Assembly: GCA_018335585.1 (NCBI GenBank)
Contig: JAGXRZ010000046.1
Span: forward strand, 11,832 to 75,831
DNA: 64,000 nt
DNA from: Selenomonadales bacterium
Lineage (GTDB): Bacteria; Bacillota; UBA994
Direction: 5' to 3'
Shown here: one piece after another, positions 6,769 through 63,106 of the stretch
Position numbering within the stretch: position 1 is the first letter of the stretch
How the letters are laid out: each line of letters opens with the position of its first letter
The notes under the pieces: generated by a model
The model's database searches: none
What the model was told of the DNA's origin: nothing
Seen by the model: the letters and a program-made list of their open reading frames with translations, nothing else
Made by a program: the position numbers and the translations under genes

Positions 6769-6845
6769 TGGTGGGAGCAACAGGGTTCGAACCTGTGACC
6801 TCTACCGTGTCAAGGTAGCGCTCATCCCAACTGAGCTATGCCCCC
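6769..6845 (-). tRNA. tRNA-Val (anticodon GAC)
   Basis: Minus-strand sequence GGGGGCATAGCTCAGTTGGGATGAGCGCTACCTTGACACGGTAGAGGTCACAGGTTCGAACCCTGTTGCTCCCACCA. Cloverleaf, anticodon loop TTGACAC, encoded CCA. Confidence 0.85.
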
Positions 6846-6872
6846 GCGGCGACTTTCATTATACAGGCGTAG

Positions 6873-8606
6873 CTAGACAGTGTCAACCTGTTGATCTGCC
6901 CGGCCTATCGCCACACTCACTCGCTGCGTGCCGCCGCGCTGCGACAGCAGCCATACCGTAAGTTCTGTGGCTGGCACTTCGTCTTTGACGCGGATATTCC
7001 ACTTTACGCGCACCGTGCCTCGCTGCGGCGGAAACACGTAGTAGAACCAAGCTTTCTGCCCTGCTGAATACCCCTCAAGGTGGCCTACTTCATACTGATG
7101 TTCGCAGTTGACGAGCTCCATGCCTTTAGGTAAATCCAGCCGTACCAGGTCTGGCCTTACCGCCTTTTGTTTTATAGCTTGCTTTGTTATGTTCGTCGAC
7201 AGGAACCCGTGGTTTGACACCACCGCATGCACGCTGTATAGATTTTCGCCAAGGGGCTTAACCGTAACTTCGTCAATGTGCACTTCTGGTAGGGCTAGGG
7301 CGTAGCTCAGGGCAAACGCAGTCATCCTGTGACACTCAGCGTGGAGGAGGTGGCGAGGTGGATTCTGGCGGTACTCCTTCACTTTCCATCCGCCCACCTC
7401 GACTTCGCCAAACTGCGGATGCGCGACCTTTTGCCACGGCACAAAGCCCTCGCCTGTAAGCTCGCGGTCGTTCCACTGCAGCAGCTTGAGCTCGAGCTTG
7501 CGACGGTCGATTTTTTCCGGGGCCTTGAGAAAATCTGCTTTCATCTCGGGAGCGGCGCGACCTACGGCGTCCCAAAGCTCGGGAGTAAAAGCGAGCAGGC
7601 CAAGCTGGTCAAAGCACCAATCGTCAAGCACGCCTGAGGAATCGTCGCCGTAACAGCAAATGACAGGATACCCGGTGGCGTTTTCGCCGAGCTTGCCTAC
7701 AGCCTGATAAAGGGCAATGTCTTCCTCCGCAAAGTCTTTATCGGGAATGGTGCTGTGCGGCCTAAACAGCAGCCCTCCGGTGGTATGGTAGAGCAACACC
7801 CCAGCTATATTGGGGCGCTGGCTGATAAACTCCACCTGACACCTCGTTTCGGGTTCGGAGAGCGGATAAGGGCCGGCACCGGTTGTTTGAATGTTAAACC
7901 CAGAGGGGAAGTTGCGGTTAAGGTCAAGACCGTACTTGGTGGCCACATGCGCAAAGGGCGGCAGCACTTCCTCCACCCATTCGCCCTTGGCGTCCTTAAG
8001 CACGCCTTCGGTATACAGATGATAAAACGGCCCTACCATGTCTAGCGGCGAGCGCTCCGTCATCAGACGCGAGTCTTCCGGGTCTACCTTCCATGCACCG
8101 CGGGCATCGTCGCGAATGCGCATAGTTAGAATCAGGCCATTGCCGTCAAAATCCTCGGCGTGCAACCCAGGTGGGTCTTCGTACTTGCGAAAATCCGGGA
8201 AGGGACGGACGCTGCTGCGCAGCTGAGCCGGTGTAGCCAGATAGAGCTCGGCGCCATCTGGGTTAATGCGCGGCAAAACGTAAAATGTGCGTGAGTCCAA
8301 CAGCTTCGTGACCACAGCATCTGTCCCGTAGCGCGAAAGCAGATAGTCAATTAAGTGCAGCGCGGCCATGGAACCGGTGACTTCTCCGGCGTGAATATTG
8401 CCGTCGATGTACATGCCGGGCTTCTCTAGCGGCGCGCCCGTGCGAGGGTTCGTGATAGTCACAGCCCAAATGTCGCGTCCCTCGTAGCTCTTACCCACAG
8501 ACGTCAAAGTGACAAAGTCGGAGTACTGCGCCTGTAAGTTGTGTAGCGCAGCAGTAAGTTCCTGATAACGTAGATAGCTGTCAAACTTTAGTGCTGTGTT
8601 CCCCAT
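6873..8606 (-). CDS. M14-family zinc metallocarboxypeptidase
   Basis: 577 aa. ...YIDGNIHAGEVTGSMAALHLIDYLL...VLPRINPDGAE fits the M14 zinc-binding HxxE region. Confidence 0.65.
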   Translation of the reverse strand: MGNTALKFDSYLRYQELTAALHNLQAQYSDFVTLTSVGKSYEGRDIWAVTITNPRTGAPLEKPGMYIDGNIHAGEVTGSMAALHLIDYLLSRYGTDAVVTKLLDSRTFYVLPRINPDGAELYLATPAQLRSSVRPFPDFRKYEDPPGLHAEDFDGNGLILTMRIRDDARGAWKVDPEDSRLMTERSPLDMVGPFYHLYTEGVLKDAKGEWVEEVLPPFAHVATKYGLDLNRNFPSGFNIQTTGAGPYPLSEPETRCQVEFISQRPNIAGVLLYHTTGGLLFRPHSTIPDKDFAEEDIALYQAVGKLGENATGYPVICCYGDDSSGVLDDWCFDQLGLLAFTPELWDAVGRAAPEMKADFLKAPEKIDRRKLELKLLQWNDRELTGEGFVPWQKVAHPQFGEVEVGGWKVKEYRQNPPRHLLHAECHRMTAFALSYALALPEVHIDEVTVKPLGENLYSVHAVVSNHGFLSTNITKQAIKQKAVRPDLVRLDLPKGMELVNCEHQYEVGHLEGYSAGQKAWFYYVFPPQRGTVRVKWNIRVKDEVPATELTVWLLSQRGGTQRVSVAIGRADQQVDTV

Positions 8607-8730
8607 ACATACTCCCCTCTCGCGGCAAGATGTGGCCTTGTCTTATTCTAATTTCTGCTTGCCGCAGTCGAATTCCTGCCGTTGGGTCAATGTCGCAATC
8701 CTCCGTTCCCTCAAGGACACGCCTCGACAC

Positions 8731-8769
8731 GCGAAAACAAAAAGAACCGTCCCTTTTGTTTCGGTTCTT
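8731..8769 (-). terminator. Intrinsic terminator at the end of the tRNA cluster
   Basis: Hairpin AAGAACCG...CGGTTCTT followed by TTTGTTTTC on the minus strand, just 3' of tRNA-Leu. Confidence 0.55.
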
Positions 8770-8782
8770 TTACTTGGGAGTA

Positions 8783-8871
8783 TGGTGCCGAAGGCCGGAA
8801 TCGAACCGGCACGCCCCTCACGGAGCGAGGGATTTTAAGTCCCTTGCGTCTGCCTGTTTCGCCACTTCGGC
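8783..8871 (-). tRNA. tRNA-Leu (anticodon TAA)
   Basis: GCCGAAGTGGCGAAACAGGCAGACGCAAGGGACTTAAAATCCCTCGCTCCGTGAGGGGCGTGCCGGTTCGATTCCGGCCTTCGGCACCA. Long variable arm, anticodon loop CTTAAAA. Confidence 0.8.
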
Positions 8872-8877
8872 AAAAAT

Positions 8878-8952
<75 letters not shown>

Positions 8953-8997
8953 GGAAACAAAAACCCAACTTACGTGTGTAGCTGGGCGTGTAAACTA

Positions 8998-9072
8998 TGG
9001 AGCGGAAGACGAGATTCGAACTCGCGACCCTCGCCTTGGCAAGGCGATGCTCTACCGCTGAGCTACTTCCGC
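8998..9072 (-). tRNA. tRNA-Gly (anticodon GCC)
   Basis: GCGGAAGTAGCTCAGCGGTAGAGCATCGCCTTGCCAAGGCGAGGGTCGCGAGTTCGAATCTCGTCTTCCGCTCCA. Anticodon loop TTGCCAA. Confidence 0.8.
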
Positions 9073-9119
9073 ATGCGTCACGTCAGGATATTAGCACACG
9101 TGTTTACGGAGTGCAAGAG

Positions 9120-9252
9120 GGGCTGCTAGATGCTGGCTCCTAGTAGAGGGATGTGCCCAGTGCCTAGTGCTCAGTGCCTAGTGCCTCAAGCTGATTGCTG
9201 AGTGCTGAGTGCCCTTCGTCTCAAAGCTCACAGCTCAAAGCTCACAGCTCAA
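9120..9252. repeat. Modular heptamer-array intergenic element (inverted orientation) between tRNA-Gly and tRNA-Phe
   Basis: GTGCCCAGTGCCTAGTGCTCAGTGCCTAGTGCC is the reverse complement of the GGGCACT/GAGCACT arrays. It is followed by TCAAAGCTCACAGCTCAAAGCTCACAGCTCAAAAG, the reverse complement of the TTGAGCT/GTGAGCT arrays. Confidence 0.7.
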
Positions 9253-9257
9253 AAGGC

Positions 9258-9333
<76 letters not shown>

Positions 9334-9344
9334 ACTTTGTGAAG

Positions 9345-9420
9345 TGGCGGAGTCGACGGGAATCGAACCCGCGATCTCCGGCGTGACAGGCCGGCATGTT
9401 AACCGCTACACTACGACTCC
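9345..9420 (-). tRNA. tRNA-Asp (anticodon GTC)
   Basis: GGAGTCGTAGTGTAGCGGTTAACATGCCGGCCTGTCACGCCGGAGATCGCGGGTTCGATTCCCGTCGACTCCGCCA. Anticodon loop CTGTCAC. Confidence 0.8.
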
Positions 9421-9424
9421 AAAA

Positions 9425-9500
9425 TGGTGGGAGCAATAGGGCTCGAACCTATGACCCCCTGCTTGTAAGGCAGGTGCTCTCCCAGCTGAGCTATGCTCCC
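9425..9500 (-). tRNA. tRNA-Val (anticodon TAC)
   Basis: GGGAGCATAGCTCAGCTGGGAGAGCACCTGCCTTACAAGCAGGGGGTCATAGGTTCGAGCCCTATTGCTCCCACCA. Anticodon loop CTTACAA. Confidence 0.8.
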
Positions 9501-9555
9501 GTGCATTTAGTAGTATACTTACTTGTTTAGCTCGCGTCAAGCAAAAAATGAATGT

Positions 9556-9640
9556 TTGTCGCTTGTCACCTGTGGCTCGTCGCTGGAGCCTGGAGGCTGG
9601 CGGCTGGCGGCTTGTGATTTGTGATTTGTGATTTGTGATT
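9556..9640. repeat. Heptamer-array element between tRNA-Val and tRNA-Arg
   Basis: GGAGCCTGGAGGCTGGCGGCTGGCGG followed by CTTGTGATTTGTGATTTGTGATTTGTGATTTG (GTGATTT x4). The GCTGGCG array recurs at 55862-55893. Confidence 0.7.
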
Positions 9641-9644
9641 TGAA

Positions 9645-9719
9645 ATGGCACGCCCGAGAGGAATCGAACCTCCGCACCCGGATCCGGAGTCCGGCGCTCT
9701 ATCCACTGAGCTACGGGCG
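9645..9719 (-). tRNA. tRNA-Arg (anticodon CCG)
   Basis: GCGCCCGTAGCTCAGTGGATAGAGCGCCGGACTCCGGATCCGGGTGCGGAGGTTCGATTCCTCTCGGGCGTGCCA. Anticodon loop CTCCGGA. Confidence 0.75.
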
Positions 9720-9750
9720 CATTTATCACTAAGACAGTATATACGTTTGC

Positions 9751-11169
9751 TTAGTGTAATGCAAGTGAAGCAAAAAGCTCCGTCCCTTTTGCTTCGTTAA
9801 CGATTGCCTTAAATTGGCGGCCGCGGTCTTCAAAGTCGCGAAACATATCGAAGCTCGCGCAGGCTGGCGAGAGCATGATGTTTGTGCCGGGCACGGCCTG
9901 TGCCTGGCACCACTCTACTGCGGCGGCAAGCGAAGGTAGAATAGCCTGCTGCACGTGTTTGCCGCTCTGTTGTTCGGCCAAGAAAATTGCCTGGGAAATT
10001 TTTTGCGCGGTTTTGCCGATAAGCGCTACGGCGCGCACGCGTTCTACTATCACGCTGGCCAGGTCGTCAAAAGGCACCTGCTTGTCAGAGCCGCCAGCGA
10101 TTAGCACGATGTCTCCCCCAATTGCCCGAATACCGGCGATGGTGCGCGTGGGGCTAGATGCGATAGAGTCGTTGTAGTACTTTACGCCGTTTAACTCGCG
10201 CACTAGCTCCAAGCGGTGTTCGACGCCCGCAAAGTCTGTCACTGCTCTCCCTATTACCGCAAGCGAAACACCTTGTACTAGGCAAGCGGCGGCCGCAGCC
10301 GCGACATTCTCTTGGTTGTGTGCGCCGCATAGCTTAAGGTCGGCCGCCGTGCAGATCTGTCCCTCGTTCCCTTGCCAGCGCGCCAGCAAGCGGCCGTTAT
10401 GCCAGTACACGCCTTCCGTGAGCTCATGTGAGCGACTAAAGAAGACCGCACGGCCGCGGGCTGACTGTGCCATGCCGCGCGTAAGCGCATCGTCGTAATT
10501 TAGTATGACCCAATCGTCAGGCTGCTGAAAGCGCCAAATATTGGCCTTAGCGGCGATATACTCCTCGTAGCTCTTGTGCACGTCTAGGTGATTAGGAGAA
10601 ATGTTTGTGATTACGGCGACATGTGGGCTCTGCCGCATCGGCATAAGCTGAAAGCTCGATAGTTCTAAGACTACCTTGTCATTGCGTTCGATTGTTTCAA
10701 CCTGCTCGATAAGCGAGTTCCCAATATTGCCCCCCAAAAACATGTTGAAACCGGCTTCCCGTAGCACCGCAGCAATCAGCGAGGTAGTGGTAGTCTTACC
10801 GTCACTTCCGGTCACCGCGGTAATCGGGGCAGGGCACAACTCACAAAAAAGCTCGATTTCGCTTGTCAGCACCGCCCCTTCTGCTACCGCCGCTACAAGC
10901 TCAGGTAAATCCGGGCGCATTATCGGGGTCTTAAAAATATAGTCAAACCCTGTGAGGTGGGCAAGATAGTCCGCGCCAAGTGTAAGCCTAACATCTAGTC
11001 CGTCAAGTAAGGCGACGACGTCCGGCATTTCGTGCGCCTGCCGTCTGTCTAACGCCGTAACTTGGGCGCCATGCCGGCACAAAAAGCGCACCAAGGGCAC
11101 GCCACTTCTTAGGCCGAGGCCCAAGACGGCGGCTTTCTTACCTTTAAGCCGACTAACTGCTGTAGACAT
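9751..11169 (-). CDS. murD: UDP-N-acetylmuramoyl-L-alanine--D-glutamate ligase
   Basis: KKAAVLGLGLRSGV at the N-terminus; GSDGKTTTT P-loop; a MurD-like C-terminus ...SPACASFDMFRDFEDRGRQFKAIV. The last ~15 codons run through a repeat-family hairpin. Confidence 0.85.
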   Translation of the reverse strand: MSTAVSRLKGKKAAVLGLGLRSGVPLVRFLCRHGAQVTALDRRQAHEMPDVVALLDGLDVRLTLGADYLAHLTGFDYIFKTPIMRPDLPELVAAVAEGAVLTSEIELFCELCPAPITAVTGSDGKTTTTSLIAAVLREAGFNMFLGGNIGNSLIEQVETIERNDKVVLELSSFQLMPMRQSPHVAVITNISPNHLDVHKSYEEYIAAKANIWRFQQPDDWVILNYDDALTRGMAQSARGRAVFFSRSHELTEGVYWHNGRLLARWQGNEGQICTAADLKLCGAHNQENVAAAAAACLVQGVSLAVIGRAVTDFAGVEHRLELVRELNGVKYYNDSIASSPTRTIAGIRAIGGDIVLIAGGSDKQVPFDDLASVIVERVRAVALIGKTAQKISQAIFLAEQQSGKHVQQAILPSLAAAVEWCQAQAVPGTNIMLSPACASFDMFRDFEDRGRQFKAIVNEAKGTELFASLALH

Positions 11170-15749: not shown

Positions 15750-17150
15750 CTACCTCTGCTTGCAGAACTCGCGCGCTAGCGACACCGCCTGTTCGCGACT
15801 GACAAGTTTACCCATGGCGGCCTGCTCGCTGAGGTGGTCGAGCGTTTCACCTAGCCACTTGCCGGGCGGCAGTTTAAGCTCCTGCATTAGCTCGGGCGCC
15901 GTAATAGGGAGCGGCGGGCTTATAATCTCCGCTTTCTTAAACAACCAAGCCTCCAAAAAGGCCTCGGTCGTGCGCACGATTTGGCTATAGTCTTCTTCTG
16001 TTTGCGCTTCGCCGCCTTTCCCCCGGAAATCTGCCAGCGCAAACAGCGCCAGCGGCACGCTCTGCTCGCCGTAGCGCCGGGCTATGCGATAGATATGCCC
16101 GTTATGGAGGCGCGGCAGCCGCGCGAGCTGTCCTAAGTACATATGCCAACGCACAAAGCGAGACAAGGCCTTGTGTTCGGCTTGCGACAACTTAAGCCGC
16201 CGCGAAACAGCAGAAACCATCTCCTGCCCCACCTGTTCGTGGCGATAAAACGTAACCCTGCCGTCCTCGCGCACAGCGCGCGTCGACGGCTTTCCCATGT
16301 CATGCAGAAGTGCACCTAGCTTACATACAGCCTGTTGGTGCAAATCGAGCTTGGAGAGCTCGGCTTGTACTGCAGGAGTGAGCTTTGGGGGGAGGAAATC
16401 CGGCGAGTGCCAGATTTGCACGTAGAACCGAAACACCTGCCGGGAATGCTCGTACACGCAGTGGCTATGGTAACGGTTCTGTGTAACGCCCTTTTCGCGG
16501 GTGAGCTCCGGTAAGAGCGTGTCCCACACGCGGCAGACATCTAGCCAATCTAGCACCTGCGGGGCGGAAGGGGCATTAAGTACGCGCGCTAACTCGGGCC
16601 AGATGCGCTCCCCCGCACACTCCGTTAACAAGTGACTTGCCTCTACCGCTTGTTGTGAGAGGAGAGCGCCAGGCGAAAAATCGTATTCGGCCATCAAGCG
16701 CGCCGCCCGCAGGATACGCACAGCGTCGTTTTGCAGGGCCAGCGGGTGTGTAGTGCATAACAGCTTCTGCTTAAGATGCGCTCTGCCGCCGTGGGGGTCA
16801 TGTATTTTGTTTAGGCGACGCTCGAGGTAGTCGTCAAGCGAAAGGGCCATGGAGTTTACGGTAAAGTCGCGCTGGGCTAGGTTCGCCGTAAGCTCGCCGG
16901 TAAGGGGCGAAAGGTCGCAAGTTTCCTCCCCAACGACAAACCTGAAAAAGCCTCGTTCTCCGCTCAGCGGAAAGGGCGAACAACCGAAGACTTCTGCAAC
17001 CTCGGCTAGCAGACCCTGAAAGTCGTGGGCAGGTAGCAACAGGTCGATATCGGGGCTTATTTGCGCGCGCCCTAAGCAGAGGTCGCGCACTGCCCCGCCG
17101 ACGACGTAAATGTCCTGCCGGCGGACAAGCTGCCGTAGCTCTTCAATCAC
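15750..17150 (-). CDS. cca: CCA-adding tRNA nucleotidyltransferase with HD domain
   Basis: IYVVGGAVRDLCLGRAQISPDIDLLL matches the polymerase-beta head; ...ALLHDMGKPSTR is the HD motif. Confidence 0.8.
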   Translation of the reverse strand: MIEELRQLVRRQDIYVVGGAVRDLCLGRAQISPDIDLLLPAHDFQGLLAEVAEVFGCSPFPLSGERGFFRFVVGEETCDLSPLTGELTANLAQRDFTVNSMALSLDDYLERRLNKIHDPHGGRAHLKQKLLCTTHPLALQNDAVRILRAARLMAEYDFSPGALLSQQAVEASHLLTECAGERIWPELARVLNAPSAPQVLDWLDVCRVWDTLLPELTREKGVTQNRYHSHCVYEHSRQVFRFYVQIWHSPDFLPPKLTPAVQAELSKLDLHQQAVCKLGALLHDMGKPSTRAVREDGRVTFYRHEQVGQEMVSAVSRRLKLSQAEHKALSRFVRWHMYLGQLARLPRLHNGHIYRIARRYGEQSVPLALFALADFRGKGGEAQTEEDYSQIVRTTEAFLEAWLFKKAEIISPPLPITAPELMQELKLPPGKWLGETLDHLSEQAAMGKLVSREQAVSLAREFCKQR

Positions 17151-18576: not shown

Positions 18577-18840
18577 CATTGCCTCACCTCGTTGTGCCGT
18601 CTTCGCCCCGGTTCTCTTCGCCGTCAAAGGGCGCTTTCCCTGCACTTCTGCTGGAGATGCCCCTACTATTCCCGGAACAATGCCCGTCGTCGCGCCTGTA
18701 TTTCGTGCGCAAAGTCTCGCTGCAGGGCCATCTAACCCAGCTCTCTTTGGAAACACAGCCTCATTCTGAAGGTGGGATGGCAAGTCTGGAACTTGACGTA
18801 TGCGCATAAAATGCGTATTATTTGATTGTGAGGTGAGGAG

Positions 18841-19020
18841 ATGAAGCGGCGCGATCTCATTAGGATACTAACCGCCAACGGTTGGTGGAAGGCTAGAGAG
18901 GGCTCGGATCACACGATATATACCAATGGCAAACGGTCTGAACCTATACCGCGACACCTCGAAATTAATGAAATTACGGCGGCGAAGATCCTTAGACGCG
19001 CTGGGCTGAAGCCTAAATAG
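18841..19020 (+). CDS. hicA: HicA mRNA-interferase toxin
   Basis: MKRRDLIRILTANGWWKAREGSDHTIYTNGKRSEPIPRHLEINEITAAKILRRAGLKPK (59 aa, below the ORF-track cutoff). RBS GGTGAGGAG. YcfA/HicA fold signature. Confidence 0.75.
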   Translation: MKRRDLIRILTANGWWKAREGSDHTIYTNGKRSEPIPRHLEINEITAAKILRRAGLKPK

Positions 19021-19036
19021 AAAGGGGAGACTCACG

Positions 19037-19447
19037 GTGCAGCAAGTTTATCCTATCGTCTTAACCCCCACACAAAAAGGCGGCTATGCGGTATCTGTTC
19101 CTGACTTGAACATTGATACCCAAGGTGATAATTTAGCCGAAGCTATGTACATGGCTCGTGATGCTATCGGCATGTGGATCTGCTATGAACAAGATGCAGG
19201 TCGGTCTATCCCCAGTCCCAGCTGTTTGGACAGCATTACTGCAGAGCCAAATGAAATTAAGACACTGATCGATGTTGACACTGACGAATACCGTCGCACC
19301 CATGACAACCGAACCGTCCGCAAGAATTGCACCCTGCCTAGTTGGCTCAATGAACGTGCCGAAAAGGCTGGCGTAAACTTTTCGCTAGTTCTCCAAGAGG
19401 CATTGAAGGATCGCCTTGGTCTAAACGACAGTCCGCGAGTTGGCTAA
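19037..19447 (+). CDS. hicB: HicB antitoxin
   Basis: YPIVLTPTQKGGYAVSVPDLNIDTQGDNLAEAMYMARDAI is the HicB N-domain, with an RHH-like C-terminus. It lies 17 nt after hicA. Confidence 0.75.
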   Translation: MQQVYPIVLTPTQKGGYAVSVPDLNIDTQGDNLAEAMYMARDAIGMWICYEQDAGRSIPSPSCLDSITAEPNEIKTLIDVDTDEYRRTHDNRTVRKNCTLPSWLNERAEKAGVNFSLVLQEALKDRLGLNDSPRVG

Positions 19448-34292: not shown

Positions 34293-34499
34293 GAGGCCAC
34301 CTCCAAAATGCCGTTAATTCATTCTACCCAGATTATAGCTCTGTTGGCAACACTATCACGTGCCAATGATAGTGTCGCGTGACACTAAAAGGCCTCTCCA
34401 TCCTGCCTATCATCTCAGGCATCCCCATAATCCGAGGGAATTGGCCTCATCTCAGTTGCTTTGGATTTTGCGGTGACGTATACTGAGTGTATCAACTAA

Positions 34500-34700
34500 A
34501 TACGCTGTGGGGTGCCCCTAGCTGTAGGGGTTAAAAGGGAATCAGGTGAGAATCCTGAGCGGTCCCGCCACTGTAACGGGTAGTGCCTATACTTAACCAC
34601 TGTTCGCGCGCGAATGGGAAGGAACTAGGCGCGTCACTCCCGTAGTCAGGAAACCTGCCCCAGAGCCAAGACTCCGTCCTTCGGTCGAAAGGACTAGGTC
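34500..34700 (+). ncRNA. Cobalamin (B12) riboswitch
   Basis: AAAGGGAATCAGGTGAGAATCCTGAGCGGTCCCGCCACTGTAACGG matches the conserved cobalamin-riboswitch core. It lies 5' of btuF. Confidence 0.7.
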
Positions 34701-48530: not shown

Positions 48531-49559
48531 TTAACCAAGAGAAAGATGTCCGCGCGAGTAAAGCGCCAAAAACTCTCGCGCTGTGCGCTCCCACGTAAAA
48601 ACGCGACTGCGCAAGAACCCGGCCTGTGCCATTGTCTTCTGTAGCATGGAGTTTGAGATTAGCGCGAGCAGCCCGTTAGCCCACGCCTTAGCGTCAGCAA
48701 ATTGGCGAATAAAATGTCCGGCTTGCGGTCCTACCACCTCGGGCACGCTCCCGCGCAGGCTAGCCACAACCGGTAGCGCCGTGGCCATTGCGGGTAGACA
48801 ATCGTGTCCCGCCGCGGCGCGGTCTTGTGTCGGGTAAAGGAACATGTCGGCCGCTCGATAGATTTTTGGCTGAAGAGGGGTGCTGCCAACGACCAAAATC
48901 TTAACGCGGCTCAGTTCTGTGCCAAGCGGACAATTTTGCAGTAGCTCCAGCCCTTTTGGGTCATGCGCTGTGTGGGCCAACAACAGAACCTTCTCGTCCG
49001 GCTCCACTTCCCAGAGCAGGCGCTGCTTTTGTCGCTCCCGCATAAGTCCTCTATCGCCGTGTGCGGGAAGGAAGACCGACCCATCAACACCGGGGTAAAC
49101 GACGTTCACGCGCAAGCGCAAGCCATAGAACCTCCCGATAAAGAGGTTCTTTAAGAAGAAGCTATGGACGACTACTTGGTCGACTAAGCAGAGCGACAGG
49201 CGCAGGTCACGGCGTGAAATTGCGTCTTGGGCAAGGGGCCGCAGCGACTGCAAGTGGAGCAGCACATAGCCTTGATAGGTTTGGCGTAAGGCGGGCACTA
49301 GCCACGGGCAGTTCTCAACGTGCACTGCTGTCGGCCGCGTTTCCCGAAGTACCTGTCGCAGCACTTCCGCAGAAAAAACGAGCGGCCAACGGTATAGGCG
49401 TATTCCGAGCACCTCCGGTGCTTGCATGCCGGCCGGCAACAGGATCGATACCTCTATTCCTTGGCGCGACAGCAGTGCGGCCACCGTAAAGACTGACGGA
49501 TGTGACTCGTCCACTTCGAGCGTCGAACCGTCCGGCGGCAGTACATATAGAACTTTCAC
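48531..49559 (-). CDS. GT4-family glycosyltransferase
   Basis: ...ILVVGSTPLQPKIYRAADMFLYPT... The listed ORF 48531..49790 extends through the repeat element. A GTG start at 49559 after GGGGAG fits the family length. Confidence 0.65.
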   Translation of the reverse strand: MKVLYVLPPDGSTLEVDESHPSVFTVAALLSRQGIEVSILLPAGMQAPEVLGIRLYRWPLVFSAEVLRQVLRETRPTAVHVENCPWLVPALRQTYQGYVLLHLQSLRPLAQDAISRRDLRLSLCLVDQVVVHSFFLKNLFIGRFYGLRLRVNVVYPGVDGSVFLPAHGDRGLMRERQKQRLLWEVEPDEKVLLLAHTAHDPKGLELLQNCPLGTELSRVKILVVGSTPLQPKIYRAADMFLYPTQDRAAAGHDCLPAMATALPVVASLRGSVPEVVGPQAGHFIRQFADAKAWANGLLALISNSMLQKTMAQAGFLRSRVFTWERTAREFLALYSRGHLSLG

Positions 49560-49599
49560 CCTGCACTCCCCCAACGCGCACTTTACCTCAGTGTACGCA

Positions 49600-49810
49600 G
49601 GTGAGCGGTGGGCGGTGAGGCGCGAGCCGCCAGGAAATTGTCGCTTGTGGCTTGTCGCTTGTGGCTTGGGGAGAGGCTTTAGGCTTGAGGCTTGAGGCGT
49701 TAGAAGAACGGGCTTTGAGCTTTGAGAGCACGCTCTGTCTCCACGAAGTGCGAAGTGCGAAGTGCGAAGTGCCCGTCCTCTGCGGAGCACGAAGCACGCT
49801 CTCTCTACCA
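49600..49810. repeat. Modular heptamer-array intergenic element
   Basis: GTCGCTTGTGGCTTGTCGCTTGTGGCTTG, then TTTAGGCTTGAGGCTTGAGGCGTTAG, then TTTGAGCTTTGAGAGC, then CGAAGTGCGAAGTGCGAAGTGCGAAGTG. Confidence 0.75.
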
Positions 49811-53072: not shown

Positions 53073-53245
53073 GCTTGTTGGTCGCTTGTGGCTTGTCGCT
53101 TGTCGCTTGAGGAGAGACTTTAGGCTTTAGGCTTTAGGCGTTAGAAGGACGGGCTTTGAGCTCTGAGCTTTGAGCTCTGACCGAAGGAAAGCCGGGTGCT
53201 ACCGCGACACCGCTCTACTGAGCACTGGTCACTGAGCACTGGGCA
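53073..53245. repeat. Modular heptamer-array intergenic element (best-preserved copy)
   Basis: GTCGCTT x4, linker AGGAGAGAC, TTTAGGC x3, linker AAGGACGGGC, TTGAGCT/CTGAGCT x4, core GGTGCTACCGCGACACCGCTCTAC, then TGAGCAC/TGGTCAC/TGAGCAC/TGGGCAC. It starts about 10 nt upstream of the kbl RBS. Confidence 0.8.
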
Positions 53246-53248
53246 CCC

Positions 53249-53623
53249 CTACTTCCTCTCTTTACCCGACAAGTGCTTTTCATAAATGGTTTCTTTGAGC
53301 TCCTCGGAGCGCAAGCTACGCCAGTCTACTTCGGTAGAACCGCGTCGGGACGCAGGGTCATACTTCAGGGAGAGCTGTTCGGCTAAGAATGTCAGCACCA
53401 TGCGATGCAAGCTTTCGTTGCGCTTTTCGCGCGAAAGATGACGCGTCACCCTAACCTCCGCGCCGGTCTGTTCGGCCACGGTGCGACGCACGGCATCCTC
53501 AGGCGTCTCGCCCTCTTCCACGTCGCCCCCAGGCAGTGCCCATACGCCCCCCGGCGGTCTAACCATAAGTACATGATGGCCGTTAAGGACAATAGCTTGA
53601 ACGTAGATTCTGCGATAATCCAT
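53249..53623 (-). CDS. NUDIX hydrolase
   Basis: ...GGDVEEGETPEDAVRRTVAEQTGAE is the Nudix box. Confidence 0.7.
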   Translation of the reverse strand: MDYRRIYVQAIVLNGHHVLMVRPPGGVWALPGGDVEEGETPEDAVRRTVAEQTGAEVRVTRHLSREKRNESLHRMVLTFLAEQLSLKYDPASRRGSTEVDWRSLRSEELKETIYEKHLSGKERK

Positions 53624-53711
53624 GTTCGTCTCCCCTTTCCATCATCTTCTCTAAGCTTAGCATACCAGAGGGCGTAAGGCTGTGCAACGCGCCGCGCAAG
53701 GCGCGAGGAGA

Positions 53712-54000
53712 CTGTCGCTTGTCGCTTGTCGCTTGGGGAAGCGCTGAGCGGTGAGCTGTGAGCTGTGAGGGTGCGCCGTGGCAATCATGAATCAGGAATC
53801 GTGAATCATGAACTAGGGGGCGGGATCAGGCTCTAGGCTTTAGGCGTTAGGCGTTAGAAGCTTTGAGCGGTGAGCTGTGAGCTTTTTGCCACTGCGACAC
53901 CGCCCTACTGGGCACTAGGCACTGAGCACTGGGCACTCCATCAACCCCTCGTCCTCCACGAAGTGCTAAGTGCCAAGTGCAAAGTGCATCCCCACAACAC
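53712..54000. repeat. Modular heptamer-array intergenic element (longest copy)
   Basis: GTCGCTT x3; GTGAGCT x3; GAATCAT/GAATCGT x4; TAGGCTT/TAGGCGT x4; GTGAGCT x2; core GCCACTGCGACACCGCCCTAC; GGGCACT/AGGCACT/GAGCACT/GGGCAC; then AAGTGCT/AAGTGCC/AAGTGCA. Confidence 0.8.
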
Positions 54001-55651: not shown

Positions 55652-55893
55652 GGGAATCATGAATCATCAATCGTGAATCGTGAACTACTGGGGCTCTCAG
55701 CTTTTAGTCGCTAGGCATTAGGCTTTAGGCTTTAGGGGCAGGCTGGAAGGTGGCAAGGTTAAAGGGGTACCGGGCACTACCGCGAGATCGCCCCACTGGG
55801 CATTGGGCACTGAGCACTAATCTACGAAGCACGAAGCACGAAGCACGGAGCACGCGCTCCCCTCTCCTGGCGGCCGGCGGCTGGCGGCTGGCA
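55652..55893. repeat. Modular heptamer-array intergenic element
   Basis: GAATCAT/CAATCGT/GAATCGT arrays; TAGGCAT/TAGGCTT x3; core GGGCACTACCGCGAGATCGCCCCAC; TGGGCAT/TGGGCAC/TGAGCAC; CGAAGCA x3; GCTGGCG x3. Confidence 0.75.
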
Positions 55894-55897
55894 GCTC

Positions 55898-60802: not shown

Positions 60803-61972
60803 TTAACGTCTAAGGAACGCCGCGATACGCTCTAAGCCGGCGGCGAGGCGTGGGTCCGGCGTGGTCAGGGAAATGCGCCAGTAGCCCTCGCCAAAGCGTC
60901 CAAAACCGATGCCGGGTGAAACGATAACGCCCTGCTCGGCCAAAAGCTGCATGGCAAACTCCTGGGACGAGGCAAAGCCGGCCGGTATGGGCAGCCAGAC
61001 ATAGAGCGAAGCACGCGGCACCGGGCACGGCAGGCCCATCTTGCCGAGCGCGTCTATGACCAAGGCACGCCGCGCCTCATAGATGTTGCGCATGCGCGCG
61101 ATAGTGCCGGTAGGGTTCGCTAACCCCTCCATGGCCGCAAACTGTATGGCGGTGAACTGACCGCTATCGGTAGCCGTCTTGACCTTGCGTAACGCGGTAA
61201 TAAGCTTCTCGTTCCCGTAGGCAAAGGCCACCCGCCAGCCCGTCATGTTAAAGGGTTTTGAAAGCGAGTTTAGTTCAATGCAGCAGTCCATAGCGCCGGG
61301 TACCTCCAGGATGCTTGGGGCCACAAACCCGTCGAAGGTGATTTCCGAGTAGGCGTTGTCGTGGCAAATCACGATATTGTGCTGTTTTGCGAACTCTACC
61401 GCCTTGGCAAAGAAAGATAACTCTGCCGTAGCAGCCGTGGGATTATTGGGGTAGTTAAGGTACATGAGAGACGCACGCCGCAAGATATCTGGCGGGATGG
61501 CGCTAAAGTCCGGCAAGAAGTTGTTCTCCGGCAGCAACGGCATGTGATAGGGTTCGGCATTTGCCAAAATCGCCGCCATTTCATACACGGGATAAGCCGG
61601 GTTTGGCACCAAAACGACGTCGCCCGGGTTCGCTACCGCCAAAGCAAAGTGGGCGATGCCTTCCTTAGAACCGATAAGCCCTACTAGCTCGCGGTCTGAA
61701 TGCACGCTTATGCCAAACCGCTGCTGTAGCCAAGTGGCGGCGCTACGGCGGAAGGCGGGGTCCCCGTCGTATTCGGGGTATTGGTGCGTAGCGGTTCTAT
61801 TGCGCACGATATCGACAAAGGCCTCTACGATAAAGTCAGGCGTCGGCACGTCGGGGTCGCCTACGCCAAGGTTAATTAGGTCAACGCCGCGTGCGCGCGC
61901 CTCCCACTTGAGGCGGTCAATCTCGGCAAACAGATACTTAGGCATGTTGTGAATGCGTTCTGCTATGTGCAT
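60803..61972 (-). CDS. Class I/II PLP-dependent aminotransferase (LL-DAP/aspartate aminotransferase-like)
   Basis: ...INLGVGDPDVPTP...NPGDVVLVPNPAYPVY...SLSKPFNMTGWRVAFAYGN. Confidence 0.7.
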   Translation of the reverse strand: MHIAERIHNMPKYLFAEIDRLKWEARARGVDLINLGVGDPDVPTPDFIVEAFVDIVRNRTATHQYPEYDGDPAFRRSAATWLQQRFGISVHSDRELVGLIGSKEGIAHFALAVANPGDVVLVPNPAYPVYEMAAILANAEPYHMPLLPENNFLPDFSAIPPDILRRASLMYLNYPNNPTAATAELSFFAKAVEFAKQHNIVICHDNAYSEITFDGFVAPSILEVPGAMDCCIELNSLSKPFNMTGWRVAFAYGNEKLITALRKVKTATDSGQFTAIQFAAMEGLANPTGTIARMRNIYEARRALVIDALGKMGLPCPVPRASLYVWLPIPAGFASSQEFAMQLLAEQGVIVSPGIGFGRFGEGYWRISLTTPDPRLAAGLERIAAFLRR

Positions 61973-61988
61973 GTGTTTCCTCCTTTAG

Positions 61989-62198
61989 TGAACGTGGTGA
62001 AGTGCTCAGTGCTCAGTGCCTAGTGCTCAGTGCTCAGTGCCTAGTGCCTAGTGCTCAGCAGAGGTAAAGGTGCAAGGTAAAAGGGGAAAGGGTCCCACTG
62101 CGACACGGCTCTACTGGGCACTGGGCACTGGGCACTCCCTCTACTAGGAGCAAGGAGCGAAGCAAAAAGCTCCGTCCCTTTCCTTTTGCTTCCTTCAT
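61989..62198. repeat. Modular heptamer-array intergenic element with a terminal hairpin module
   Basis: (GTGCTCA/GTGCCTA) x8, then core CCCACTGCGACACGGCTCTAC, then TGGGCAC x3, then hairpin GAAGCAAAAAGCTCCGTCCCTTTCCTTTTGCTTC. It starts about 5 nt upstream of the aminotransferase RBS. Confidence 0.8.
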
Positions 62199-63106
62199 CC
62201 TCGCCTGGCCCTTGCCACAGCTACATGTGCTTGCGTTGCTAGGTACTGTGCGGTAAGGTCGTGAAGTTCGTTCAGGAAGGCGGCGCACACGTCGGCCGAA
62301 AGTCCGTCTACGGTCGGCTCGCGGCGTGCCGTGCAGCCGTCAACCACACCTGCCTCGCAAAGACTCGTTAGCAGAGCCTGCTCCTCCGCCGCAGTAGGCA
62401 GTAGATTCTCATTCTGCAAGACTGACAACGCGGCAATCAGCGCGTAGGCTCCCCAATTGCTCACCCCCGCACAGACGACAGACTGCGCGTCGCTAGCGGC
62501 CGCGATAGATGTGCCATTGACAGCCGTGGCAATACGGCGTCCGGCGCTCCCGCAGCCAAGTTCATTGCCGCCGTCGCCGATGGCAATGGTATAGATGCCT
62601 GCGCGCTCTGCGGCGGACAGAGCTGCATCTAGCATCGGCACATGCTGCGAAATGTCTATCCCGCGCATATTGCGGCACTTCCCGTCACTGCCTTGGCCTG
62701 GATACTCTAAGGCCACAAACACTTGGCAAGGATAGTCCTGCCAGAGGTCACTGGGCACCTTTCCGGGCTGCAAAGCGACAAACTGGGAGCGCAAGGCTAG
62801 GTTGCCGCGGCATACCGCTATGGCCTCGCGCGCGCTCACAGCGCCGAGGATATAGACAGCCTTGCCTAAGCGTTCTAGAGCTCGCGCCAAAAAGGCTGCT
62901 CCGGGCGGTCCGTCACTTTCGACCGCTTGCGCGGACGGGATGTAGAACCCTGTGGCGATGGCGACGGCTTCTGCTTTTCTTAGTCGCTCGGCCGCAATGG
63001 CTAGTGTTCCCGGCCTCTGTTCCTGCGCTAACCCACGCTGCCCGGGGTCTTGCCGGAGGTGCCATTCTAGTGCTGCGAAGTGCCCCATAGTTGCCTCCTG
63101 TGACAA
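62195..63106 (-). CDS. DUF4392-like (D-glutamate cyclase-like) protein
   Basis: 303 aa; ...IAIGDGGNELGCGS... Weak family assignment. Confidence 0.35.
   Translation of the reverse strand: MSQEATMGHFAALEWHLRQDPGQRGLAQEQRPGTLAIAAERLRKAEAVAIATGFYIPSAQAVESDGPPGAAFLARALERLGKAVYILGAVSAREAIAVCRGNLALRSQFVALQPGKVPSDLWQDYPCQVFVALEYPGQGSDGKCRNMRGIDISQHVPMLDAALSAAERAGIYTIAIGDGGNELGCGSAGRRIATAVNGTSIAAASDAQSVVCAGVSNWGAYALIAALSVLQNENLLPTAAEEQALLTSLCEAGVVDGCTARREPTVDGLSADVCAAFLNELHDLTAQYLATQAHVAVARARRG

What the first reader, a model, noticed from the sequence alone, without database searches (positions are those of the whole stretch)
61989..62198. Repeat-element copy with an expanded 8-unit array and a stem-loop module, ending 5 nt upstream of the aminotransferase RBS
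This copy carries (GTGCTCA/GTGCCTA) x8. Other loci carry three or four units of the same family, which implies array expansion. It ends in the hairpin GAAGCAAAAAG...CTTTTGCTTC, immediately 3' of the DUF4392 gene stop. This is the same stem-loop that occurs inside the murD 3' end (9763-9800). The element may therefore act simultaneously as a terminator for the upstream gene and as the promoter or leader for the downstream aminotransferase gene.
Basis: seen in the sequence. Interest (0 to 1): 0.55.

Follow-up and report, generated by a model that had tools for sequence, protein, structure and literature searches.

The report
Strain-variable heptamer-repeat cassette between two genes
The flagged sequence is one version of a rapidly changing, non-coding filler made of 7-base tandem repeats and small hairpins between two co-oriented genes of an uncultured bacterium; it is the same kind of thing as the heptamer repeats known in cyanobacteria and Xanthomonas, and nothing in the sequence marks it as a terminator or promoter.

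Summary
The array at 62001-62058 has 8.3 units of AGTGCTC/AGTGCCT. The other 25 period-7 arrays in the window have 3.3-4.9 units. Shuffled sequence gives 0-2 arrays, against 26 observed. The hairpin at 62159-92 recurs at 9767-95, inside the tail of the murD ORF.

The element is not a discrete repeat copy. It is one allele of a variable cassette, about 61988-62207, that runs from inside the last codons of the DUF4392 gene to 4 nt before the dapL Shine-Dalgarno. The cassette is built from heptamer arrays, conserved linkers and a small palindrome, all shared with six other intergenic loci in the window.

Strains whose dapL protein is 97-99.7% identical carry quite different mosaics here. One is a ~60-nt allele in which the two ORFs overlap. 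A sister species has a homologous 265-nt cassette, and two other relatives have only 11 or 55 nt without repeats. A second locus, next to the NUDIX gene, behaves the same way.

No terminator or promoter consensus was found. My best reading is a co-transcribed intercistronic spacer made and reshuffled by slippage and template switching, that is, STRR-like heptamer repeats in a new lineage. "Expansion" and "variability" are supported. "Terminator plus promoter" is not.

The parts
61988..62207 (-). Strain-variable cassette (this allele is about 220 nt). In gene sense it is bounded by ...GGCAAGGGC| on the upstream side and |TAAAGGAGGAAACACATG on the downstream side.
   Evidence: Both boundaries are shared by all alleles, while the interior differs.
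62001..62058 (.). Expanded heptamer array, (AGTGCTC/AGTGCCT) x8.3, with an internal 21-nt period. In gene sense the units read CACTGAG/CACTAGG. This is the array nearest the ribosome-binding site.
   Evidence: Related strains L211, L214 and L216 have a different unit order at the same site.
62062..62091 (.). Degenerate purine-rich heptad stretch (TAAAGGT GCAAGGT AAAAGGG GAAAGGG). Its gene-sense form, TTTTACCTTGCACC, is a linker conserved in the cassettes of L213 and L231.
   Evidence: TRF period 14, 2.2 copies; alignments.
62096..62112 (+). Non-repeat core linker CACTGCGACACGGCTCT, ending in the CTCTAC junction motif.
   Evidence: Shared with loci D, E and F; 42 nt are 90.5% identical to 53889-53930. 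CTCTAC occurs 4 times in cassettes against 0.6 expected.
62113..62136 (.). (ACTGGGC) x3.4 array, the reverse complement of the expanded array. Together they form a 24-28 nt inverted repeat that is 86-88% complementary.
   Evidence: Fold energies are -55.2 kcal/mol in mRNA sense and -74.1 kcal/mol on the + strand.
62137..62158 (+). Linker CCCTCTACTAGGAGCAAGGAGC.
   Evidence: Shared in reverse orientation with locus A, 9136-9175 (92.5% over 40 nt), and with sister species L231.
62159..62192 (-). Small palindromic module GAAGCAAAA-N16-TTTTGCTTC, with a 5-nt AAAGG loop duplication in this copy.
62195..62207 (-). Stop codon (62195-62197) and last four codons of the DUF4392/GLUCM-like gene, which are encoded inside the variable cassette.
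   Evidence: The protein tail is ...ARARRG* here and a 24-residue longer tail in the short allele.
61970..61987 (-). Invariant dapL translation start region: TAAAGGAGGAAACACATG. GGAGG is at 61979-61983 and ATG at 61970-61972.
   Evidence: Identical in all alleles and in the sister species.
9767..9795 (-). Second copy of the palindromic module, forming part of the last 15 codons of the murD ORF.
9153..9253 (.). Family locus A, between tRNA genes and in reverse orientation: arrays GTGCCYA x4.9, GCTGAGT x3.3 and CTCAAAG x4.9.
9582..9642 (.). Family locus B, between tRNA genes: arrays GCTGGAG/GCTGGCG x4.4 and TTGTGAT x4.4.
49600..49772 (.). Family locus C: five arrays (units GGTGGGC, TTGTCGC, GCTTGAG, GCTTTGA, CGAAGTG).
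   Evidence: 87 nt are 92% identical to locus D.
53081..53246 (.). Family locus D, between the NUDIX stop codon and the RBS of the next gene: four arrays plus the core linker.
   Evidence: It is replaced by a different 172-nt mosaic in strains with an identical NUDIX protein.
53713..53988 (.). Family locus E, in a divergent intergenic region: seven arrays plus the core linker.
   Evidence: Strains differ by one unit, or by three extra units.
55654..55896 (.). Family locus F, in a convergent intergenic region: five arrays plus the core linker.

Best explanation
Segment 61988-62207 is one allele of a hypervariable, non-coding mosaic cassette at the junction of a DUF4392/GLUCM-like gene and dapL, two co-oriented genes that I read as one operon.

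Such cassettes are common across this lineage. Each is built from three kinds of part:
- short tandem arrays of heptanucleotides, normally 3-5 units long;
- conserved linkers, several of which carry CTCTAC/GTAGAG;
- small palindromes.

Shown:
- The parts are shared between loci, spacers included.
- The cassette fills exactly the space between the end of the upstream coding sequence and the dapL ribosome-binding site.
- Its content differs between near-identical strains. A homologous backbone persists in a sister species.
- The array next to the ribosome-binding site in this lineage has grown to 8.3 units, with a 21-nt sub-period.

Inferred:
- The arrays arise and change length by replication slippage.
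- Modules are copied between loci by template switching or ectopic gene conversion, using the dispersed arrays as micro-homology.
- Selection only polices the edges, meaning the coding sequence, the Shine-Dalgarno and real promoters.
- The cassette is transcribed through as part of the operon mRNA. There its main physical consequence is a long imperfect hairpin (the 8-unit array paired with the 3.4-unit array) plus loss of the tight gene-to-gene coupling seen in the short alleles. It may modulate mRNA stability or processing in the way REP/BIME elements do, but it is not a dedicated terminator or promoter.
For: - Period-7 arrays: 26 observed against 0-2 in shuffles, and none for periods 8-12.
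- Arrays occur in 7 intergenic regions and in no credible coding sequence.
- Multi-module blocks are shared between loci with their spacers: C/D 87 nt at 92%, E/G 42 nt at 90.5%, A/G 40 nt at 92.5%.
- Alleles at this junction:
  - window and L001-L003 are identical;
  - L206-L210 and L226-L228 (dapL 99.0-99.7% identical) carry (CCAGCCG)x5 + (GCTCACC)x2, and the two ORFs overlap;
  - L213, L217 and L212 carry other mosaics;
  - L211, L214 and L216 carry the same array type with a different unit order.
- Sister species L231-L233 carry a homologous 265-nt cassette with the hairpin directly after the stop codon. L005/L230 has only 11 nt and L202-L205 have 55 nt, both without arrays.
- A second locus behaves the same way. 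With a 100% identical NUDIX protein, a 189-nt mosaic is replaced by a different 172-nt one between identical boundaries. Strains also differ by one or three units.
- The NUDIX promoter-like TTGCAC-17-TATGCT is conserved just outside the variable part.
- No terminator or promoter consensus was found, and there is no Rfam family match.
- Literature describes the same behaviour for intergenic heptamers in Xanthomonas and Nostoc, including length and sequence variation between close relatives and inverted pairs (PMC4692102). Slippage has been proposed as the reason heptamers dominate (Mrazek 2007, as summarised in PMC4679880).
Against: - No transcript data were available, so co-transcription is inferred only from gene spacing in the other alleles.
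- The palindromic module sits directly after a stop codon in the window, in sister species L231 and at murD. It pairs better in gene-sense RNA (G-U pairs instead of A-C mismatches). This recurring position could mean a real 3'-end function.
- The cassette backbone is conserved between species whose dapL proteins differ by about 8%. That is more conservation than pure junk would predict.
- Conserved linkers with a GTAG-containing motif could point to an enzyme-driven, REP/RAYT-like mechanism rather than passive slippage and recombination.
- Several alleles come from short-read assemblies that break or could mis-join in these repeats. L212 has different synteny, and L232 has a run of N at this site.
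Confidence: 0.6

Rival explanations
1. The hairpin terminates transcription of the DUF4392 gene, and the rest of the element supplies a promoter or leader for dapL.
For: The hairpin module lies directly after the stop codon here and in sister species L231, and at the end of murD. The murD copy folds well in gene sense (-14.1 kcal/mol, z -3.4). If L212 is a true arrangement, where the upstream neighbour is divergent, dapL would need a promoter inside such a mosaic.
Against: No copy is followed by a U tract, and there is no terminator-like or promoter-like consensus in 61700-62500. The hairpin in this copy is not in the minimum-energy fold and has z -0.79. Strains with 99-99.7% identical dapL have overlapping ORFs and no room for either signal, and a sister lineage has an 11-nt gap. 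In L213 the module sits mid-cassette, and in L230 it is in the opposite orientation.
Confidence: 0.12
2. The arrays are functional binding platforms in the mRNA leader. A multimeric or cooperatively binding RNA- or ssDNA-binding protein, for example a Csp, S1-domain or CsrA-type protein, would tune dapL translation. This has been proposed for TAACTGA repeats in Beggiatoaceae and for heptamers in Nostoc.
For: Arrays end 4-17 nt from the Shine-Dalgarno at this locus in every allele, and likewise at locus D. Array length is tightly distributed around 4 units. Literature proposals are in PMC4679880 and bioRxiv 10.1101/2022.06.06.494920.
Against: At this one site the unit sequence, array orientation and module identity all differ between near-identical strains. 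The same unit occurs in both orientations within one cassette. Arrays also lie between convergent genes and between tRNA genes. No binding partner is known in any system.
Confidence: 0.13
3. The cassettes are REP/BIME-like elements actively mobilised by a dedicated HUH/Y1 (RAYT-type) enzyme that recognises the palindromes or the GTAG-containing linkers. The heptamer arrays would be by-products.
For: The cassettes have a mosaic intergenic architecture with small palindromes: the GAAGCAAAA hairpin, and a perfect 16-bp hairpin in L213. The linker motif CTCTAC/GTAGAG is enriched about sevenfold and is strand-consistent. Blocks are copied between loci with their spacers.
Against: No such enzyme gene was looked for or seen. 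Only 64 kb of the genome was available and its proteins were not scanned. Most of each cassette is tandem array, not palindrome. No target-site duplication is evident when filled and empty sites are compared. The motif counts are small.
Confidence: 0.12
4. Assembly artefact. Under this reading the repeats or their variants would have been created by short-read assemblers.
For: Contigs often start or end inside the arrays (L002, L003, L211, L214, L216). L232 has a run of N at the cassette, and L212 has a non-syntenic left flank.
Against: The window allele is identical in the one JGI and two Logan contigs compared. The short allele is recovered by JGI, ENA (k141) and Logan assemblies from different samples. 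The L221 allele occurs in four separate samples.
Confidence: 0.03

Closest known systems
STRR (short tandemly repeated repetitive) heptanucleotide sequences of heterocystous cyanobacteria (Calothrix/Nostoc; Mazel et al. 1990, from my own knowledge; mentioned in PMC4692102)
   Same: Both consist of tandem 7-nt units with several different unit families per genome. Both are dispersed, intergenic and strain-variable. One unit here, GCCCAGT, matches STRR1 (CCCCAGT) at 6 of 7 positions.
   Different: The host is different: an uncultured Bacillota-related lineage whose relatives are labelled candidate division NPL-UPA2. The unit sequences differ. Here the arrays are embedded in ordered mosaics with conserved linkers and palindromes.
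Intergenic heptameric SSRs GGGAATC (Xanthomonas) and GGGGAYT (Nostoc PCC 7120), PMC4692102
   Same: Both are strongly over-represented in intergenic DNA, including inside operons (pecE-pecF). Both sometimes occur as inverted pairs. Both show extensive length and sequence variation between close relatives, while the flanking genes stay the same.
   Different: Those units are G-rich and form G-quadruplexes, with one dominant unit per genome. Here about ten unit types occur side by side and none has G-runs.
TAACTGA direct repeats of marine Beggiatoaceae, cyanobacteria and Bacteroidetes, PMC4679880
   Same: Both are heptamer arrays of 2-6 units lying just upstream of start codons. Their distribution across phyla is patchy. 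The ACTGA core is shared with ACTGAGC.
   Different: That system has a single dominant heptamer and no mosaic. A translational role was proposed there but never shown.
REP/BIME (bacterial interspersed mosaic elements) of enterobacteria (from my own knowledge)
   Same: Both are mosaic combinations of short modules in both orientations, located between genes of operons or at 3' ends. Both are transcribed, vary between strains and can stabilise upstream mRNA.
   Different: The BIME building block is a ~35-nt imperfect palindrome mobilised by a RAYT transposase. Here the dominant blocks are tandem heptamers, and no RAYT has been identified.

Membership tests
Heptanucleotide tandem-repeat arrays (STRR / long simple sequence repeats) | Head-to-tail repeats of a 7-nt unit, more frequent than chance | tested here: met
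   26 arrays against 0-2 in shuffles, with periods 8-12 absent.
Heptanucleotide tandem-repeat arrays (STRR / long simple sequence repeats) | Dispersed copies confined to non-coding DNA, with several unit families per genome | tested here: met
   seven intergenic loci, about ten unit types, none in credible coding sequence.
Heptanucleotide tandem-repeat arrays (STRR / long simple sequence repeats) | Polymorphism between closely related strains | tested here: met
Cyanobacterial STRR1-3 in the strict sense | Units CCCCAGT, TTGGTCA or CAACAGT in a heterocystous cyanobacterium | tested here: not met
   The units differ (closest is GCCCAGT, 6 of 7). NCBI names the exact dapL protein's source 'Selenomonadales bacterium', and relatives are labelled NPL-UPA2/Bacillota.
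Intrinsic (Rho-independent) terminator | G+C-rich stem-loop followed by a U tract on the transcribed strand | tested here: not met
   One search finds none in 61700-62500; the stem is A/U-rich, no U tract follows, and z is -0.79 in mRNA sense.
Sigma-70-type promoter | -35 and -10 hexamers 16-18 nt apart | tested here: not met
   none on either strand. Other promoter types are not covered by this scan.
REP/BIME | Imperfect ~35-nt palindromes with a conserved GTAG end, arranged as mosaics in intergenic DNA | tested here: inconclusive
   The mosaic arrangement and small palindromes are present. GTAGAG/CTCTAC is enriched, but the counts are small and the motif lies in linkers, not at palindrome ends.
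REP/BIME | A cognate RAYT (Y1 transposase) gene in the genome | not testable with these tools
MITE | Terminal inverted repeats and a target-site duplication at the insertion boundaries | tested here: not met
   Filled and empty sites were compared. No terminal inverted repeats lie at the cassette ends and there is no clear duplication. The internal inverted repeat is not terminal.
Phase-variable contingency locus (SSR) | A change in unit number switches the reading frame or promoter spacing of a specific gene | tested here: inconclusive
   Alleles change the C-terminal tail of DUF4392 (297 vs 321-323 aa) and the length of the dapL leader. On/off switching cannot be shown from sequence.
Any Rfam RNA family | A covariance-model score at or above the gathering threshold | tested here: not met
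   One search gives nothing in the element. One search gives only miRNA/lncRNA noise far below threshold.

The most novel reading that the evidence does not exclude
The heptamer mosaics may not be passive slippage debris. They could be products of an active, sequence-directed copy-and-paste process, either a dedicated nuclease/transposase or a replication-coupled template-switch pathway acting at the CTCTAC/GTAGAG linkers and palindromes. Such a process would rewrite operon junctions, gene 3' tails and leaders between otherwise near-identical strains.

The same machinery or element type could be shared across phyla. Hairpins of the polar form (AGTGCYC)n-loop-(ACTGRGC)n occur in 19 of 20 inverted cases among unrelated metagenome contigs with G+C of 46-72%.
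Probability: 0.15. Interest if true: 0.75.

Novelty: new member of a known kind. Interest (0 to 1): 0.45.

Why it matters
Why intergenic heptanucleotide repeats are so abundant in scattered bacterial lineages has been open since their description in cyanobacteria. No function or mechanism is established (PMC4692102, PMC4679880, bioRxiv 10.1101/2022.06.06.494920).

This lineage offers many natural alleles at fixed sites in near-identical strains. The order of events (slippage, block duplication, module replacement, deletion) can therefore be reconstructed.

There are practical consequences too:
- The cassettes break short-read assemblies.
- They create spurious ORF extensions, for example the DUF4392 and murD tails and the 5' extension of ORF 48531-49790.
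- They could serve as strain markers for serpentinite-associated populations.

For this particular copy, the main message is that it should not be annotated as a terminator or promoter.

Tried and rejected
- Metagenome-wide scan for ACTGRGCACTGRGCACT. It therefore gave no genome-wide census of the family, only the cross-phylum observation.
- Rfam at gathering and at permissive thresholds: nothing real.
- Terminator/promoter consensus scan: nothing.
- "Recent insertion into an empty site". I first concluded this from L005 and L004. I revised it after sister species L231-L233 showed a homologous cassette. Presence or absence is polymorphic among relatives, and the direction of change (gain or loss) is unresolved.
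- Possible target-site duplication (AAGGA) at the boundaries: not reproducible across alleles.
- L212 as evidence for a rearrangement at the arrays. I did not rely on it because a k-mer assembler could mis-join at shared arrays.
- A strand-specific RNA function inferred from the better + strand fold. I rejected this as evidence because the difference follows simply from C/T unit variants giving G-U pairs on one strand and A-C mismatches on the other, and because array orientation is mixed within cassettes.
- A literature search for the exact unit strings found no description of these repeats. The NPL-UPA2 genome paper does not mention repeats.

Full report
**What is at the coordinates**

Both flanking genes lie on the - strand.
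- The upstream gene is a DUF4392/GLUCM-like gene, called 62195-63106 by the ORF list. Its stop codon is at 62195-62197.
- The downstream gene is an LL-diaminopimelate aminotransferase (dapL), 60803-61972. Its ATG is at 61970-61972 and its GGAGG at 61979-61983.

The 222-nt gap between them, read on the + strand, contains these parts in order:
- (AGTGCTC/AGTGCCT) x8.3 at 62001-62058
- a degenerate purine-rich heptad stretch at 62062-62091
- a non-repeat core, CACTGCGACACGGCTCT, at 62096-62112
- (ACTGGGC) x3.4 at 62113-62136
- a linker, CCCTCTACTAGGAGCAAGGAGC, at 62137-62158
- the palindrome GAAGCAAAA-N16-TTTTGCTTC at 62159-62192

The two arrays are reverse complements of each other. They give a 24-28-nt inverted repeat that is 86-88% complementary.

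**Is it more than chance?**

Yes. A period-7 scan finds 26 arrays in the window. Twenty dinucleotide shuffles gave 0-2 arrays each. Period 6 gives one array and periods 8-12 give none.

Twenty-five of the arrays are 21-34 nt long (TRF reports 3.3-4.9 units for them). The flagged array is the only long one. Its 21-nt sub-period (2.8 copies, 94% matches; unit order AAB AAB BA) indicates duplication of a three-unit block.

The 20-mer of the hairpin occurs exactly twice in the window, against none in 100 shuffles. The second copy is at 9767-9795, within the last 15 codons of the murD ORF.

**What family it belongs to**

Six other intergenic loci in the window are built the same way: 9153-9253, 9582-9642, 49600-49772, 53081-53246, 53713-53988 and 55654-55896. 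Each is a run of arrays of about four heptamers. The units include TTGTCGC, GCTGTGA/GGTGAGC, GAATCAT, CTTTAGG, GCTTTGA, ACTGGGC, CGAAGTG/CGAAGCA, CTGGCGG and TTGTGAT. The arrays are separated by short linkers and tend to follow a recurrent order.

Blocks are shared between loci together with their linkers:
- locus C vs D: 87 nt at 92% identity
- locus D vs E: 43 nt at 91%
- locus E vs the flagged locus: 42 nt at 90.5% (core plus ACTGGGC array)
- locus A vs the flagged locus: 40 nt at 92.5%, in reverse orientation

The linker motif CTCTAC occurs four times in the cassettes, plus once reversed in the reversed locus, against 0.6 expected.

Arrays lie between co-oriented, divergent and convergent genes and between tRNA genes. 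None lies in credible coding sequence. There is no Rfam match.

**Organism**

The exact dapL protein is in NCBI as MBS3985751.1, from a "Selenomonadales bacterium" MAG. Cluster members at 92-93% identity are labelled candidate division NPL-UPA2 or Bacillota. The nearest species representatives are MAGs labelled Bacillota bacterium HKB212 and Peptococcaceae CROMO_A_245. The NPL-UPA2 genome paper does not mention repeats.

**Comparison of the same junction in other strains and species**

This is the decisive evidence. All alleles share the upstream boundary ...GGCAAGGGC and the downstream boundary TAAAGGAGGAAACACATG. The interior differs.

| Allele (loci) | dapL identity to window | Content of the junction |
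|---|---|---|
| Window, L001-L003 | 100% | Identical long allele |
| L206-L210, L226-L228 (JGI, ENA and Logan assemblies) | 99.0-99.7% | About 60 nt: (CCAGCCG)x5 + (GCTCACC)x2; the upstream ORF reads through (321 aa instead of 297) and overlaps the dapL start |
| L217 | 98.5% | (CGAAGCA) array plus a CCCCTCTACCAGGAG linker, joined to the short-allele end |
| L213 | 97.4% | 227-nt mosaic with other arrays, a perfect 16-bp hairpin, the GAAGCAAAA module mid-cassette, and a G11 run |
| L211, L214, L216 | 98.7-99.5% | The same RBS-proximal array type as the window but a different unit order; contigs break inside it, so unit number is unknown (at least 4 to at least 6) |
| L231-L233 (sister species) | 92-93% | Homologous 265-nt cassette |
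| L005/L230 (sister lineage) | 92-93% | 11 nt, no arrays |
| L202-L205 (sister lineage) | 92-93% | 55 nt, no arrays |
| L004 | 78% | 47 nt, no arrays |

The L231-L233 cassette reads, in gene sense: stop codon, hairpin module, ACTCCTGGCTCCTGGTAGAGG, (GTGCTCN)x3, GTAGAGTCGG..., TTTTACCTTGCCACC, two other arrays, then CAC|TAAAGGAGG.

The cassette backbone is therefore older than the species. Its arrays turn over quickly. The 8.3-unit array is a lineage-specific expansion or replacement at the end nearest the ribosome-binding site.

**Generality**

The same behaviour is seen around the NUDIX gene (53249-53623). In strains with a 100% identical NUDIX protein, four samples carry a different 172-nt mosaic in place of the window's 189-nt one, between identical boundaries. 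That 172-nt mosaic includes an inverted pair of CTGGCGG-type arrays.

Upstream of NUDIX, one strain lacks one unit and another has three extra units. The promoter-like TTGCAC-17-TATGCT just outside the variable part is invariant.

Sister species carry arrays at the orthologous intergenic sites, but with other units: GCTTTCC x6, GCTTACA x5, GCGGAAA x5 and GGTTGAC x4.

**Function**

The consensus scan finds no intrinsic-terminator-like or sigma-70-like site in 61700-62500 on either strand.

In mRNA sense the flagged hairpin is not part of the minimum-energy fold (z -0.79), and no U tract follows it. The murD copy folds well (-14.1 kcal/mol, z -3.4) but also lacks a U tract.

The array inverted repeat gives -55.2 kcal/mol in mRNA sense (z -2.3) and -74.1 kcal/mol on the + strand (z -4.8). 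The difference arises because C/T unit variants give G-U pairs on one strand and A-C mismatches on the other.

Alleles with overlapping ORFs or an 11-nt gap leave no room for a promoter. dapL is therefore normally transcribed from upstream. The simplest reading is that the long cassette is transcribed through as well.

Within single cassettes the same unit occurs in both orientations. At one site, unit identity also differs between strains. Both facts argue against a sequence-specific binding platform.

I therefore favour (confidence 0.6) a slippage and template-switch driven, largely unconstrained mosaic. Its edges are policed by selection on the coding sequence, the Shine-Dalgarno and real promoters. 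Its structural side-effects on the operon mRNA would be REP/BIME-like at most.

Points that keep the rivals alive:
- the hairpin module recurs directly after stop codons;
- the backbone is conserved between species;
- the linkers contain a GTAG motif.

**Comparison with what is known**

Heptamers are the dominant long simple-sequence repeat in many bacteria, and slippage has been proposed as the reason (Mrazek 2007, as summarised in PMC4679880).

Intergenic heptamers in Xanthomonas and Nostoc show the same features. They occur in intergenic DNA, including operon-internal positions. They sometimes form inverted pairs. They also show extensive length and sequence variation between close relatives (PMC4692102).

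Cyanobacterial STRR (from my own knowledge; cited in PMC4692102) and TAACTGA repeats (PMC4679880) are the closest named families. Function is unresolved in every one of these systems (bioRxiv 10.1101/2022.06.06.494920).

This is therefore a new member of a known kind, in a lineage where it had not been reported. It has an unusually rich mosaic structure and an unusually well-sampled set of natural alleles.

**Verdict**

- Observation: confirmed.
- Interpretation: partly supported. Expansion and variability are supported; terminator plus promoter is not.
- Interest: 0.45.

Noticed in passing
Metagenome loci L087, L099, L132, L139, L160, L161 and others: The unit ACTGRGC forms tandem arrays in at least 118 unrelated metagenome contigs with G+C of 31-76%. 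In 20 of them an inverted partner array lies within 200 nt. Nineteen of these have the arrangement (AGTGCYC)n-loop-(ACTGRGC)n and one has the opposite order. Random slippage would not predict such a polar, cross-phylum hairpin.
   Followed up: partly
L086:6600-6773: An unrelated 63% G+C contig carries CGAAGTG/CTGAGTG, (GCGTTGA/GCTTTGA)x14 and (GCCCAGT)x7 side by side. These are nearly the same unit types as in this window. The contig ends inside the array.
   Followed up: no
window 9751-9810: The last ~15 codons of the murD ORF (NEAKGTELFASLALH*) run through the palindromic module. This suggests the module replaced or extended the native C-terminus, as the cassette does for DUF4392. It was not checked against MurD of relatives.
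   Followed up: no
L206-L210, L226-L228 (gene-sense ~1440-1510); L213:302-1273: In the short and L213 alleles the DUF4392 ORF is translated through heptamer arrays (321-323 aa instead of 297). In the short allele it also overlaps the dapL start codon, so array turnover rewrites the protein's C-terminal tail.
   Followed up: partly
L212:1-1500: In one Logan contig whose dapL protein (P0008) is 97.4% identical to the window's, dapL is preceded by a 380-nt mosaic with seven arrays and a divergent 420-aa gene that has no nucleotide match in the window. This is either a rearrangement at the arrays or a chimeric assembly.
   Followed up: partly
L230:14374-14508, 16183-16245, 18789-18903; L231:14985-15027, 19237-19268: Sister species carry arrays at the orthologous intergenic sites but with different units: GCTTTCC x6, GCTTACA x5, GCGGAAA x5, GGTTGAC x4 and GCGACAA x6. 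L230 also has a variant of the GAAGCAAAA palindrome in the opposite orientation upstream of NUDIX.
   Followed up: partly
window 53620-53700 (gene-sense upstream of NUDIX); L218-L225: A promoter-like TTGCAC-17 nt-TATGCT is invariant in all alleles and begins a few bases from the edge of the variable mosaic. Real signals therefore appear to delimit the cassettes.
   Followed up: no
window 48531-49790 (-) and 9406-9729 (-): Mechanical ORFs run through repeat loci C and B. The first is probably a 5' over-extension: a GTG at 49557-49559 has a GGGGGAG upstream. The second overlaps tRNA genes. These repeats would mislead gene callers.
   Followed up: partly
window 34493-34676 (+): A full-length cobalamin riboswitch is present (RF00174, 109 bits).
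   Followed up: no
window 6772-9720 (-): This region holds a cluster of eight tRNA genes. Heptamer mosaics occupy two of the inter-tRNA spacers, so they would be part of a tRNA precursor transcript.
   Followed up: no
L232:9830-9930; L005/L230 DUF4392 gene: The NCBI MAG contig behind L232 has a run of N exactly at the cassette. In L005/L230 the DUF4392 gene is called as only 203 aa, although homologous sequence continues to a stop codon 11 nt before dapL, which suggests a frameshift or an assembly error.
   Followed up: no
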